64,000 bases of DNA, taken from contig OX597832.1 in the NCBI GenBank assembly GCA_951406725.2, positions 37,076,001 to 37,140,000 on the forward strand, in the 5' to 3' direction. A model generated the notes under the pieces. The model made no database searches. It was not told the DNA's origin and saw only the letters and a program-made list of their open reading frames with translations. Origin of the DNA: Octopus vulgaris (taxonomy: Eukaryota). This document shows, in pieces, positions 34,546 through 63,000 of this stretch (the first letter of the stretch is position 1; the number at the start of each line of letters is the position of its first letter). Position numbers and translations under genes: made by a program.

Positions 34546-36391
34546 CTATTATAAAGCAGTATGTTGTCTCGCTGTTGTAGCTGTCTTTGTACAATAGTTG
34601 TCACTTTGACAGATGTTGTTATATTCCGAAGACATTAATAAAATGTTTCTACCTGGCACTGTACAACCCCCAGTCATACAGTGTTATTATCGTCAAATGG
34701 TTTGATCATTGTAATGCCCACACGGTATTGCAGTATAATTACTAGGCCACTACAGACATGACCAACAACAGAGTCTAATATGTACTCTCATACTTTACGT
34801 ACTCTCTTGATACTGGCCGATGTCTCTTTACTTATAGTGACCTTCCCATTCTGTAGGTGGAATGTACCATTATTATTAAAGTAACTAATCTTTATTCTAT
34901 CCTGAGGTAATAATACACACTACAAAAATCACCAAAACACTACATACACAGAATTTTCATGGAAAAGTGTGAAATTTACTAAGTTTGTGTTTGTTTTCAT
35001 AAAAACTCGTATATTACCCATGTGCGGCAAAACAATTGTGAATAATCAGACCAAGGATCGAAACTTCCCTACTTACACAGTAAAAAATCCAATTGTCTTA
35101 GAGAATAAGTGGAGTAAAGAAAAAACGTATGATATACAATTCTTCTGTCATTTCATTATTACGATCTGTCGAAAGCCAACAATTGAGGTAAGAACAACTT
35201 TGTTTACATTGACCAATTCCTCATGTGGCTTTATTTTCTTATATATAAACAGATATGTTGTTCAAAGGCAACAAGAGAGGTAAGAACGACTTTGTTTACA
35301 CTAACCAGTTCCTCGTGTGGTATTATTTTCCCATATATAAACAGAAAGGTGTCTGACTTATATATCTAGATTTCCAGGAAAGCAGTAATTGAATACGTGA
35401 TTAATTATTTAGTTAATTAATTAATTAACTACACGTGACTTTATATATAAATCATTTTAAAGCTCTAAATCTTTTTAGGTACTGCACTTTAAATTAATTT
35501 TTCATTCAACTGAAATTTTACGAAAATAACTAAAATCTGTTTTCCTTTTATATTTACGATCCCAAAATATATAAGTCTCTCCACTTCTTATACTCTTCGA
35601 TCTAATCTGCGATTGATTAATTTCTCAATTCTTCTCTCTCTCTCTCGTCCATGTCTCTCCCCTGTTGCACACCCCCACTCTCTCTCTCTATCACGCGTGC
35701 ACGCACACACTCACATGTACACACACACACACATACTCTCTTTTGTTCTCTGTCTCTCTCTCTCACTCTCTCTCTTTTTCTCTTGCTCTCTCTCTCTCAC
35801 TCTCTCTCTCCTGCTCTCACTCTCTATCTCCTGCTCTCTTTCTCTCTCCTGCTCTCTCTCTCTCTCTCTCTCTCTCTCTCTCTCTCTCTCTCTCTCTCTC
35901 TCTCTCCGTATACCTATCTGTTGAATATGTGTGTATTTGGGAATATGTCGATAGAAAAATTATAGATATACTCTCAAAGTCACACACATCTCTTGATTGA
36001 CTAATCTCTCAATCCCCCCCCCATGTCGCTCTCCCTATAACAGCCCACACTCTCTAGCACACACACACACATGTATACACACTCATTCTCTCTCACTCTA
36101 TGTCCCCTCCTCACTCTCTCTTGCACTCCCTCTCTCTCTCTCTCTCTTTTGATCTCTCTTTTCCTTGTATACCTATACATTGAACATGTCTGTATATAGA
36201 AATATGTCTATAGAAAGATTATAGTTGTATACACAAAGTCACAAGGATCACTCTTCGCTATCCCAGCTAATACCCCTCCCAACTGTGCACGCATAGATCA
36301 AAACAGATTGTATCTCTTTCTTCCCCTCTCCCTCTCTCTCCTTACCTCAATATTTCTCTAAACATATACAAGAGGCAACAGCAGGCTAAAG

Positions 36392-36793
36392 ATGTCTTGA
36401 AATTGGATCAGCGCTGAACTGAAACTGTTACTAAAAGGATGGAATATAGCTGAAGGAGTCAATCCAAATAATATTATAAAGGCAGCTCTAAAGAGCAATG
36501 GCTACAGAAGGACCACAGCTCAGACAGAAGGGAAAAAACGAGAGTTGATCCACTCCTATGCTCTCATCAAACCTCACATTAACACACTTAACACCATCTT
36601 TGCACAGGAACTCATAAACAGCAAGGATGGAGACCCTGTTGTGAGTAACAGACATACCCCTGGCCCTACCGATCCACAAGGGAATTTATCTGAAACCATA
36701 ACTAAAATTGAGAAACCTGCCAAGGAAGAAGACATCAGCACTGATGGCCCTACCAGCACCAATATCAACACCAAACAGGACAAAAGAGCAAAT
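36392..36793 (+). pseudogene. Myb/SANT-like (trihelix) protein, copy A, stop at codon 3
   Basis: MS*NWISAELKLLLKGWNIAEGVNPNNIIKAALKSNGYRRTTAQTEGKKRELIHSY; fits W..E...LL..W and L...GY.RT..Q...K...L...Y. Confidence 0.72.
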
Positions 36794-36958
36794 GTATATA
36801 TGTGTGTGTATACACACACACACACACACATATATATATATATATACATATGTATATATATGTATGTATGTATGTATGTATGTATCTATACATCACCATG
36901 ATTGACCACTAACTCGAAAACTTTTTTTTATTCTGTCTCTGTTTATTTCCTCATGTTC

Positions 36959-59449: not shown

Positions 59450-60070
59450 CTTCCATACTTTTTTTTAATCTATATATGGTCGTCTCTTGGCCTTAGAGAA
59501 TATATATTTTAATGGTTTTCACATTTTTTGATTTATCATTTATTTATATATTGTAATTGTGTATTACTACTTTCTATGTTTTTTATGTGTGTTTGAGTTT
59601 TGGTTAGAGAAGTGAAAGGATTTTCTCTATAATTATTTCAAGTGGTTTCCTTACTTTTTTTAATCTATATGGTCTTATATTTGCATAACAGAATATTTTT
59701 TTAGTTGTTTTCCTATTTTTTAAATTTATTATTTATCTATATGTTGTAATTGTGTATTGTTACTTTCTATACTTTTTTATATGTGTATTGGTATGTATTG
59801 TTTGAGTGTTTTGTTTATAGAGTATATATTTATTTATTTAATTTGACTGTTTTACATTATTTTTTAATCTTTATTGTCGTATATTTGCATTATAGAATAT
59901 TTTTTTATTGTTTTCACATTTTTTGATTTATTATTTATTTATATGTTGTAATTGTGTATTCTTACTTTTTTATATATTTTTGTATATTTGTCTTGGTGTG
60001 TATTTTTTGAGTGTTCTGGTTAGAGAATATTAGAAAAGTGAAAGGATTTTGTCTATTTATTTATTTTACT
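59450..60070. repeat. Three tandem ~200-bp T-rich units, possibly inside a Helitron ending CTAG-T near 61030
   Basis: tttttttaatct...ttgtaattgtgtatt...ttgagt occurs three times. Confidence 0.7.
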
Positions 60071-63000
60071 GTCCATCTGTGACTGTGATTAAATTGACTA
60101 AGAACACTCTACATGATGAATATCCAATACCAAACAATCTTAATCCCCATATCTAAACTGCATTAAACTTTGGCAAGCTTATCTTTACCTATTCTGAGTT
60201 ACTGGAAAGGTGATGTTCCCTTTCCTCTCTTCTGATTGTTGATACCTTTTTTTTTTTTTTTACCTTTGATACCTTTGTTTCATTTTAAGGATGCTTCTTT
60301 ACCCACTTGCGCCTCCACTTGCTGCTGCTGCTAAAGCTGTAGCTACTTCAGAGCAGCACGAAACCTATTGAGTGCATGCTACATGTATCCTGCTCACTTT
60401 TACCATCCTTACAACTTCACAATTATCTGTCTGCCTTACAACTCGACATCTTTTCACTGCAAAAGATTCAAAGCAATATTCGTGAACTGAAGTCAAATTC
60501 TTCGTCTTCATTTTCCGTTACCTGAAATCAATATTAGAGTGGTCGCACACTGTAAGCACATAGCAAATACATCCTTTAACTCTACTTTTTCAAGTAGGTA
60601 TCATATCGCTATTTTTGAACATACAAATCATTTCTCTCTGAAAAAATAGCTCTCTTTGGTGTTGAATAACAAAAACTTGCAGAATGGAAGTTTCAATGTT
60701 TTCCTTCAATTTCCTTCTACCATTTTTGTGGCTGTTTCTGACAAGAGATTTCGCTTTCATGTAAAACAACTATATTTTGTAGTTATTATCCATGATCTAC
60801 TACCAAAACACTTCGGTAGCTCTTCTTTGCATCGTTTGCAAGCTTATATGATCTACGATCATTAAGGTGCAACAGCCTCCACAATAACCAGCCCTCAATT
60901 TGATTTTCCATTCCTAGGTTAATTGGAAACATAGATTGCCATTCTACTCATAAACCTCGATTGTTCAATTATTTGGTGGAAAAAATACTACCAAAGCAAC
61001 TTAAAATGTCCAAAATACAGGTGCATTTTCTAGTATATATATGTGTGTGTATATATATATATATATATATATATATATATATAAACATATGTATATATAT
61101 ATATAAGTTCAGTAAAATTTAGATTCAGATGAAGTTTTTGCGTTTGTTTTCATAAGAACTCATATATCACCCATGTATGGCAAAACCCTAGTAAATAATC
61201 AGATGAAAGGATTAAACTTCTCTACTTACATAGTAAAAAAATCCAATTCTCTTAGTGAATAAGTGGAGGTAAAAACGTATGTATACACTTTTTGTTTTGT
61301 CTTTTTGTTATTACAATCTTTCGAAAGCCAACAATTGTGGTAAGAACAACTTTGTTTACGTTAACCAACTTCTCATGCAACATTATTTTCTTATACATAA
61401 ACAGATCTCTTGAAAGCCAAAAGTCGAAGTAGGAACAACTTTGTTTACACTAACCAACTCCTTACACAGCATTATTTTCATATATACAAACAGAAGGGTG
61501 TCTCATTTCCAGGAAAACAAGAAATTGATAATGTAATTAACTATTTAGTTAATTAATTAACTACATGTATATATATATATATAAATCTTTTTAGTCTCTG
61601 CACTGAAAATTAATTTTTCAATCAACTTAAATCTCATGAAGAGCAGTAAATTCCATTTTTCTTTATATTTATGATCCCAAAACATATAAGTCTCTCCATA
61701 TATCCTTTGATTGATTGATTAATTTCTCAATTAGCACCCCTACACTCTCTCACTAGCATGCGTGCACACTCATGCACACACAGAAACACACGCTCTCTTG
61801 CTCTCTCTCTCTTTTGCTCTCCCTCTCTCCATCTCTCCCTACATACCTATCTGTTGGTCATGTGTGTTTATGAGAATATGTCTATAGAAATACTATAGAT
61901 GTATACTCAAAGTCACACAGATCTCTTGATTGACTAATCTGTCAATTCCTCTCTCTCCCTGTAGAACCCCACCCCCACCCACTCTCACACATATGTCCCC
62001 CTTTCACCACTTGACAACCAGTGTTGGTTTACGTCCCTGTAACTTAGCAGTTCAGCAAAAGAGACAGAAAAAACAAGTACTAGGCTTAAAAAACAAAATA
62101 TAAGTACTAGAGTCGATTCATTTAACTAAAACTTTTTCAAGGCAGTGCCCCAGCATGGTCGCAGTCTAATGATGGAAACGAGTAATATAAAAGAAGACAC
62201 CAGTCAAGCACTGGTATCAATTCTTCCATCCTTTTCCCCATGTTGTCTTATTCTCTCTCTCCATTTCTCTCTTTCTTTCTGCAAGAAGTCAACCATGGTT
62301 TGATCTGAAGAGGGACAGGCTTTGCCAAGTTTAAAATACCCTTAATACAGTGCATGATATAATGACATCCCTCTGAGTTTGCTGATTATATCAGTCCCAG
62401 TGCTATACTTGTACTTATTTCATTGATCCTGAATTTGAACTCAGAATATAAAGAGCCAGAAGAAGTGGTGCTTACCGTTTCTTTCATAATCCCAGCCAGC
62501 TAACTGAAATACTTAGAAGAAACAAGAAACTGTGTGGGGGTAAGATGAGGGTAGTTACATGAAGTAAATGGGTGAGATCAACAATAATAAGGAAGACACA
62601 TTAATTAGTAGGATTTACCTGTATGGTTTTAATTAGATTTAAATGTATCAAGTTACACTTTTAACTTTTCATTAACCTGAGGCCTGTCCTGTTCAAGCAG
62701 ACCTATTTCCAAAAGTATTCAGATTTTGACCATTTAGTCATAGTATATCTAAAACTACTCTAGTGTGTTTGTTCTATTTTTCTTAAAATGCTATGGTAAA
62801 ATTTCAGGAAGGTTTTAGCTGCTATTTCTAGAAGGCAAACTGACAGCACAGATCCTCCCTTATAGACTATAAAAACACTATTCTTATTTTGTGGCATCAT
62901 CAATATTTCTATCACAAAGCTCCTAACCCACTTTGTTGATATAAACTGACTTTCAAATAAGCAAATATCTAAACAAACAGATCATATCATGTGATTCTGA

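What the first reader, a model, noticed from the sequence alone, without database searches (positions are those of the whole stretch)
35164..61430. Ten frame-preserving 24-nt microexon cassettes with intact splice sites across a decaying array
Seen: ten array units carry ...acAG|24 nt|GTA(A/G)GA between ~65-nt introns with CTAAC/CTGAC-type branch motifs. All 10 keep AG and GT. Nine are 24 nt and one is 27 nt. All are stop-free in the phase-2 frame: YVVQRQQE, SLESEQP, SVEIEQL, SIESEQL, SVESEQE, SAESEQV, SVESEQL, SDESQEE, SVEIEQL, SLESQKS. Neighbouring paralogous sites have decayed in some copies (upstream donor lost at ~53733, downstream acceptor lost at ~41050 and ~54505). Inference: either 5' UTR exons of the Myb-like genes, or a combinatorial microexon cassette array like schistosome micro-exon genes, producing variable (R-S-x-E-S-E-Q-x)n peptides.
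Basis: partly seen in the sequence, partly recalled or inferred. Interest (0 to 1): 0.72.

Follow-up and report, generated by a model that had tools for sequence, protein, structure and literature searches.

The report
Preserved microexons in decaying octopus array
In an octopus-like genome, a 2-kb block copied about eleven times is decaying except for the splice signals around one 24-base piece, which is therefore likely still used as a tiny exon and would, if joined across blocks, encode a short variable acidic repeat; the joining itself is untested.

Summary
The ten cassettes are real: all keep AG and GT, nine are 24 nt and one 27 nt, and one frame is open in all. Each is the second copy of an 89-nt duplication inside a ~2-kb block tandemly copied ~11 times (72-83% alike, star-like tree). 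The cassette interior shows no codon-level constraint, and the open frame (P 0.10) and 3n length (24%) are ordinary on their own. The downstream Myb/SANT-like ORF is broken in 5 of 5 copies and near-neutral, so the 5'UTR reading is unlikely. No splice junction was seen: two probable RNA runs cover the region unspliced, but contigs cannot show chains of 24-nt exons. Best reading (0.4): live in-frame microexons joined across blocks. Close rival (0.3): fossils of a dead family of tiny genes. No host gene was found.

The parts
34880..62000 (+). Tandem array of ~11 partial or whole copies of a ~2-kb block (U1 34880-36790, U2 38343-39200, U3 40935-41580, U4 42188-43206, U5 44335-45205, U6 46315-48236, U7 48595-49785, U8 50290-51820, U9 53370-54970, U10 56850-57745, U11 61137-62000), separated by microsatellites and transposon fragments
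   Evidence: self-BLAST; pairwise identity 0.72-0.83; star-like tree
35253..35279 (+). Cassette C of U1 (27 nt, 3-nt insertion)
40968..40991 (+). Cassette C of U3 (upstream exon deleted, downstream acceptor deleted)
42578..42601 (+). Cassette C of U4
44678..44701 (+). Cassette C of U5 (upstream donor at 44613 lost)
46757..46780 (+). Cassette C of U6
48922..48945 (+). Cassette C of U7
50748..50771 (+). Cassette C of U8 (upstream donor weak, downstream acceptor lost); site of an unresolved 26-nt contig piece in run X3
54416..54439 (+). Cassette C of U9 (upstream donor and downstream acceptor lost; pyrimidine tract displaced by an insertion)
57521..57544 (+). Cassette C of U10 (identical to that of U4)
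61405..61428 (+). Cassette C of U11 (weakened donor GTAGGA)
35164..35344 (+). The 89-nt tandem duplication in U1: last 24 nt of putative exon B plus 65-nt intron, then cassette C plus 65-nt intron; same layout in the other blocks
   Evidence: (family D15)
50622..50680 (+). Putative exon B of U8: ATG 59 nt before the donor, in the cassette frame, reading like a signal peptide; in-frame ATGs also at 35129, 42454, 46631 (4 of 9 blocks)
   Evidence: signal-peptide likeness is by eye, no predictor run
35345..35384 (+). Putative exon D of U1 (40 nt; TAG or TAA 25 nt in, in the cassette frame, in 9 of 10 blocks; weak donor)
34885..34915 (+). Site A (donor-like AG|GT at 34907; also 42250, 46432, 50406, 53465, 56967), GT kept 6 of 6, most conserved 30-nt window of the block
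36392..36799 (+). Broken Myb/SANT-like ORF of U1; other broken copies start at 38963, ~47869, 49651, 51423
53792..54358 (+). LINE-like fragment inserted in the upstream intron of U9
   Evidence: LINE likeness recalled from the translated sequence, no Pfam hit above cut-off
45250..46356 (-). Tc1-type transposase between U5 and U6
   Evidence: Pfam PF01498, PF13358

Best explanation
The ten cassettes are copies of one 24-nt segment that keep their splice signals while the rest of each duplicated block decays, so they are likely still spliced, and they would most likely be joined across blocks, in frame, into one fast-changing acidic repeat of a not yet identified plus-strand transcript. Shown: an 89-nt duplication (end of exon B plus its intron) made the cassette inside an ancestral ~2-kb block; the block was then copied ~11 times in a burst; only the cassette's acceptor and donor are intact in every copy; the Myb/SANT-like ORF is a dead passenger. 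Inferred: that the conservation reflects present use, that the partner exons are other cassettes rather than the neighbouring B and D, and that the product is protein, about 80 residues of (R-S-x-E-S-E-Q-x)n with every exon phase 2-2 so any could be skipped.
For: Splice hexamers of C kept at 118 of 120 positions, 104.5 expected, 0 of 200,000 simulations reach it; 82 of 84 in the seven copies whose B-C-D reading is broken (P 0.0008); 0.18% of 31,151 control hexamer pairs do as well. C dinucleotides 20 of 20 against 14 of 19 for B donor plus D acceptor (Fisher P 0.02), the latter near the background of 0.67-0.71. Upstream intron has 0.66 of expected changes, downstream 0.97. The joined cassettes give 80 codons with no stop, against 14 and 5 stops in the other frames; the one indel is 3 nt. 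Seven cassettes rank in the top 9 of 36 short-exon candidates of the whole window, both strands (rough matrices from recall). Two probable RNA runs cover array and flank, as a transcript spanning the array would. Weak hint: in run X3 the depth tables imply an unlisted piece of 25-27 nt over cassette U8, the 26 nt that a spliced cassette shares with the genome.
Against: No junction seen. No flanking coding exon or host gene found: 150 of 170 filtered ORFs of 55 aa or more were scanned and only transposon-type ORFs reached a Pfam cut-off. No synonymous bias: 4 synonymous against 21 non-synonymous codon changes in C; 0.27 against 0.25 neutral over B, C, D. Open frame and 3n length are each unremarkable (P 0.10, 0.24). 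An intact acceptor lies 65 nt downstream in 7 of 10 blocks and would compete, leading to a stop. Three cassettes have weakened signals outside the dinucleotides (U3, U9 acceptors; U11 donor). B donor plus D acceptor hexamers are themselves slightly over-kept (100 of 108, P 0.05, deleted U3 acceptor left out). The sites were singled out after the fact. The second X3 piece of the same depth (about 49 nt near 49010) fits no splice model I could build. X1 and X2 are only guessed to be RNA and give no strand.
Confidence: 0.4

Rival explanations
1. Fossil gene family. Each block was once a separate tiny gene (exons B, C, D; about 35 codons, possibly a secreted peptide). The copies stayed functional for part of their history and are now dead; the kept C sites are residue of past selection plus luck and selection bias.
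For: In-frame ATG 59 nt before the B donor in 4 of 9 blocks, signal-like in U8; TAG or TAA 25 nt into D in 9 of 10 blocks, with marginal synonymous excess in D (P 0.057); all six splice-like sites kept 49 of 56 against 388 of 575 background; blocks riddled with insertions and deletions; X1 and X2 contigs unspliced through U1, U7, U8.
Against: C sites are kept at 82 of 84 positions in copies that are dead under this reading; no coding signal over B, C, D together (P 0.24); in-frame ATGs in about a third of altered copies is what chance gives, and T-rich DNA reads as hydrophobic in any frame.
Confidence: 0.3
2. Live non-coding spliced RNA. A long non-coding transcript uses the cassettes as exons; the reading frame is incidental.
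For: Splice-site conservation without codon-level constraint; sample-restricted cover of the region in X1 and X2 but not X3, X4, X5; thousands of octopus lncRNAs are reported (PMC9115989, passages read).
Against: Does not predict the open frame and 3n lengths (joint chance about 0.02 if independent); no hosted small RNA found: Rfam negative, hairpin module folds well in only 2 of 10 copies with 1 of 12 pairs compensated.
Confidence: 0.14
3. Live array of small secreted-peptide genes: blocks U1, U4 and U6 still splice B-C-D and make ~35-residue precursors.
For: These three blocks have ATG, four intact splice sites and an open 35-36 codon frame.
Against: Their N-termini are scrambled by compensating indels and U1 and U4 lose the hydrophobic core; a 943-nt contig runs unspliced through U1 in both X1 and X2 and none of the 14 listed joints, the full list, matches its introns; does not explain kept C sites in the other seven.
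Confidence: 0.07
4. Neutral decay with chance or gene conversion: nothing is selected, the sites survive by luck, by conversion between copies, or because a DNA-binding motif overlaps them.
For: U4 and U10 cassettes are identical though not sisters in the tree; the finding was picked from many windows.
Against: P 0.001-0.005 before correction; conservation sits on the edge hexamers, not on the tract between (interior 32 of 240 changed).
Confidence: 0.06
5. 5'UTR exons of live Myb/SANT-like genes.
For: The ORF lies downstream on the same strand behind a pyrimidine tract and AG.
Against: ORF broken in 5 of 5 copies, absent from 6 blocks, dN/dS 0.84-0.98 in the three long comparisons.
Confidence: 0.03

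Closest known systems
Schistosome micro-exon genes, MEGs (PMC4350168, passages read; 10.1101/2023.06.21.545858, search listing and abstract start only)
   Same: Short symmetric exons of 3n length, fast amino-acid change with dN/dS near 1, transposon-rich setting.
   Different: MEGs are shown transcripts with a signal peptide and most coding sequence in microexons, and are described as restricted to flatworms. Here no transcript is shown, each cassette sits in a decayed multi-exon block, and a signal peptide is only suggested in a broken copy.
Microexon-encoded acidic linkers made by block duplication (titin PEVK, recalled; octopus obscurin array only from unchecked scan notes e1-8667253, e1-8670502)
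   Same: One small in-frame exon per repeated block, acidic low-complexity product.
   Different: Those lie inside a recognisable large gene; no host gene was found here and there are only ten exons.
eMIC/Srrm234-dependent neural microexons (PMC8797185, passages read)
   Same: Size, and better conserved upstream intron.
   Different: UGC near the acceptor in only 2 of 10 copies; neural regulation untested.
Myb/SANT-like trihelix domain PF13837, for the passenger ORF; nearest named proteins XP_036366487.1 (O. sinensis) and five O. vulgaris predictions
   Same: Three-helix predicted fold, nearest solved structures TEAD4, DNAJC2 SANT, GT-1, RAD MYB at Z 6.4-7.2.
   Different: Below Pfam cut-off; all copies here are broken; two longer relatives carry a CCCH-like finger. 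A transposon origin is likely but not shown.

Membership tests
Micro-exon gene (MEG) | Very short symmetric exons of 3n length with canonical sites | tested here: met
   10 of 10 at DNA level
Micro-exon gene (MEG) | [quoted passage not shown] | tested here: inconclusive
   No junction in contigs, which cannot show such chains
Micro-exon gene (MEG) | Signal peptide exon | tested here: inconclusive
   Signal-like reading in U8 exon B by eye, but a stop follows at its junction; scrambled or out of frame in others
Micro-exon gene (MEG) | Alternative splicing gives a pool of isoforms | not testable with these tools
   No raw RNA reads offered
Micro-exon gene (MEG) | Flatworm lineage | tested here: not met
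   All six named homologues of the block's ORF are Octopus
Functional Myb/SANT-like gene cluster | Intact ORF under purifying selection | tested here: not met
   Broken in 5 of 5; dN/dS 0.84-0.98 in long pairs
Myb/SANT-like domain (PF13837) | Profile score above cut-off or clear structural match | tested here: inconclusive
   No hit for the window ORF; E 0.004-0.02 in 3 of 16 homologues; best Z 7.2
PIF/Harbinger DNA transposon | Terminal inverted repeats and a transposase partner ORF | tested here: not met
   Only (TA)n at block ends in two whole blocks; no such transposase among 150 scanned ORFs; decayed ends could hide TIRs
Non-LTR retrotransposon ORF1 | ORF followed by endonuclease-reverse transcriptase in full-length relatives | tested here: inconclusive
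   No fused long relative; no genomic context available; CCCH plus Myb not among ORF1 types in PMC4120745 passages
miRNA or other small-RNA host cluster | Conserved hairpin or Rfam family in each block | tested here: not met
   a curated octopus miRNA list could not be searched

The most novel reading that the evidence does not exclude
A dead tandem gene family has been recycled into a single micro-exon gene: one 24-nt exon was kept from each of ten decaying gene copies, and these are spliced across copies in variable combinations to give a MEG-like variable acidic peptide in an octopus, outside flatworms.
Probability: 0.2. Interest if true: 0.75.

Novelty: new member of a known kind. Interest (0 to 1): 0.45.

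Why it matters
If the chain is real, it shows a route by which a microexon array arises: gene-sized tandem duplication, then loss of every exon but one per copy. Such a gene is invisible to ordinary annotation and to 31-mer assembly, so octopus genomes may hide more. One targeted RT-PCR tests it. If it is a fossil, it is an ordinary pseudogene array of low interest. Two literature searches (microexon plus octopus; micro-exon plus cephalopod) listed no paper on such a locus.

Tried and rejected
No whole genome is held, so copies elsewhere could not be mapped. No RNA holder is on record; this says nothing on expression. Runs X4 and X5 show almost no cover of U1 and X3 little of U7-U8. In one search, 25 of 40 joints were not shown, and, 188 loose ends were not shown, so cassette-edge signals could be hidden. 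I first read unbroken contigs as evidence against splicing; that holds only for within-block B-C-D splicing, because a C-to-C chain shares 26-27 nt with the genome, under the 31-letter word. Word-index protein searches found nothing; PDB sequence search gave only chance hits; Foldseek had no hit at E 0.001; atlas gave a PF13837 lead at 0.87 and nothing for P0016. Metagenome scans were empty. Mirtron or structured intron: z between -0.5 and +1.7 in nine introns, no covariation on the plus strand. Pre-miRNA idea for the repeated module: rejected. Rfam matches below gathering score lie almost all on microsatellites; no tRNA. A 12-nt palindrome over the acceptor is not kept on its right arm. Literature searches for a CCCH-plus-Myb ORF1 gave no match in listings. 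Scan look-ups by place and sequence were empty. The isoform annotation in the supplement of PMC9699675 was too large to read and its PDF was not searched; it may show whether these exons are annotated.
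Full report
Observation. All have AG before and GT after; nine are 24 nt, one is 27 nt; the frame that skips one base is open in 10 of 10, the other two have stops in 8 and 5 of 10. The named losses at neighbouring sites are real and there are more of them (44613, 50681, 50837). Branch-like words are patchier than stated (4 of 10 upstream, 7 of 10 downstream windows) and mostly sit only ~20 nt after the donor.

Anatomy. From 34880 to 62000 lie about eleven whole or partial copies of a ~2-kb block, broken by microsatellites, a Tc1 transposase, mariner and LINE-like fragments. 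Copies are 72-83% alike; the tree is star-like, with 0 of 8 inner branches well supported and median end branch 0.14. In each block: a donor-like site A; a putative exon B; an 89-nt tandem duplication made of the last 24 nt of B plus its 65-nt intron, whose second copy is cassette C; a 40-nt putative exon D; a CT-rich stretch; and in five blocks a Myb/SANT-like ORF that ends in a microsatellite or an insertion. Block U2 has no cassette. So the ten cassettes descend from one ancestral exon-making duplication. They are not ten independent observations of a motif; only their survival is informative.

Organism and passenger ORF. A full HMMER search found 16 relatives. The six with names are Octopus sinensis and O. 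vulgaris predictions on six contigs of different length, so the family is dispersed. The model has three confident helices and its nearest solved folds are TEA, SANT, trihelix and MYB domains at Z up to 7.2, which is middling; Pfam PF13837 stays below cut-off. Two longer relatives carry a CCCH-like finger, which I recall from retrotransposon ORF1 proteins, but I could not confirm that in print. All five copies here are broken, and dN/dS is 0.98, 0.88 and 0.84 in the three comparisons of 118-127 codons; the seven shorter ones range 0.21-0.96. The ORF is a dead passenger, which undercuts the 5'UTR reading.

Six splice-like dinucleotides are kept in 49 of 56 cases against 388 of 575 for other AG and GT; two of the six I chose myself. 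The four sites of the duplication alone give P 0.004-0.007 under four backgrounds. The signal is concentrated on C: 20 of 20 dinucleotides against 14 of 19 for the B donor and D acceptor (Fisher P 0.02); hexamers 118 of 120 against 104.5 expected, and 82 of 84 in the seven copies whose B-C-D reading is broken (P 0.0008); 0.18% of 31,151 control hexamer pairs do as well. B plus D hexamers are 100 of 108 (P 0.05, with the deleted U3 acceptor left out). The upstream intron has 0.66 of expected changes, the downstream 0.97. These tests assume independent copies, which the star-like tree roughly allows, and are not corrected for the finding having been picked after the fact. For counting, the two pieces of U9 and of U10 were each treated as one row and terminal or long gaps as missing.

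Coding tests. The cassette interior is changed at 32 of 240 positions, like the background; 4 changed codons are synonymous and 21 are not; an open frame in all ten has neutral probability 0.10, and 133 of 544 comparable windows keep 3n lengths. Over B, C and D together the synonymous share is 0.27 against 0.25 neutral (P 0.24); D alone is marginal (P 0.057). So the protein sequence is not constrained, which fits a dead or non-coding exon and also a fast-changing repeat, as reported for MEGs (PMC4350168, passages). The ten cassettes joined give 80 stop-free codons. An in-frame ATG lies 59 nt before the B donor in 4 of 9 blocks and reads like a signal peptide in U8, and D has a stop 25 nt in: the block may once have been a ~35-codon gene.

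RNA. No run is on record as RNA. X1 and X2, guessed to be RNA, hold 0.75 and 0.66 of the words; two other runs of their study hold 0.10 and 0.08. Their assemblies are 140 and 199 million letters against 3,828 for X15, which looks like whole-genome DNA, so sample-specific transcription is likely but not shown. Their contigs run unspliced through U7 and U8 and through U1 in a 943-nt contig, and go on into the 5' flank. All 14 joints are listed and none matches a U1 intron; 25 of 40 joints are hidden. This speaks against abundant within-block B-C-D splicing in those two samples, but not against C-to-C chains, which share only 26-27 nt with the genome. The cover may also come from a minus-strand gene, since an exon-like ORF lies at 420-749 on the minus strand. 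One hint: in X3, which barely covers the region, depth at 50760-50768 is 13.7, of which 2.6 is a listed contig; the bin mean implies a further piece of 25-27 nt at depth 11.1, the size expected of a spliced cassette. A piece of the same depth near 49010 fits no splice model, so this is unresolved.

Mechanism. The pattern that needs explaining is one exon's splice signals kept in every copy, whether or not its neighbours survive, with frame and phase intact. The simplest reading is that C is used independently of B and D, that is, spliced across blocks into a short acidic repeat (0.4). The steps from conservation to present use, to cross-block joining, and to protein are each inferred. Against it stand the missing host exons, an intact competing acceptor 65 nt downstream in 7 of 10 blocks, and three weakened cassettes. 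The fossil small-gene family (0.3) and a spliced non-coding RNA (0.14) remain open. Unchecked scan notes report other microexon arrays in this genome; they raised my prior and are not evidence.

Comparison and novelty. It would work like a MEG or a microexon-encoded linker but cannot be filed as a MEG: lineage fails, and transcript, signal peptide and alternative splicing are unshown. Papers: PMC4350168, PMC8557442, PMC9115989, PMC9699675, PMC4120745, PMC11203168, PMC8797185 and 10.64898/2026.09.05.749416 were seen as passages only; others as search listings. Verdict: real feature, selection on splice sites likely, function unproven; new member of a known kind; interest 0.45.

Noticed in passing
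window 420-749, minus strand: 109-codon ORF with a signal-peptide-like start and Cys- and Thr-rich body; no Pfam hit on the part scanned and not in the protein collection by exact sequence. May be an exon of a minus-strand gene whose intron spans the array.
   Followed up: partly
window 15662-16534: Near-identical 360-nt tandem repeat (two copies and a part) ending in an inverted copy, the layout described for Penelope-like pseudo-LTRs (PMC8557442, passages); holds a CCGATGA..GAAA word like a minimal hammerhead, not supported by folding or Rfam.
   Followed up: partly
window 38459-38482: Block U2, which lacks cassette C, has its own AG, 24 nt, GTAAGT at a different position; the other blocks lack the AG there.
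   Followed up: no
window 34885-34915 and five paralogous sites: Site A reads as branch-like word, pyrimidine tract, AG directly followed by GT, like a recursive splice site (motif recalled); most conserved 30-nt window of the block (permutation P 0.04).
   Followed up: no
window 61847-61932 and 35916-35997: A module present once or twice per block folds into a ~28-30-pair hairpin in these two copies only (z -4.5 and -2.2).
   Followed up: yes
window 33200-34600, minus strand: Broken gag-like remnant with a zinc-knuckle-like word and a poly-Gln stretch just before the array (likeness recalled, no Pfam hit).
   Followed up: no
window 3440-3740: Plus-strand ORF with two hydrophobic stretches, no Pfam hit.
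   Followed up: no
window 48820: X1 and X2 both carry one more T in the T-run of U7 exon B than the window; the run length varies among blocks and sets the frame of the upstream ATG.
   Followed up: partly
window 28097-28640 and 28985-29560: Two diverged direct copies of a ~550-nt element about 890 nt apart, seen by eye.
   Followed up: no
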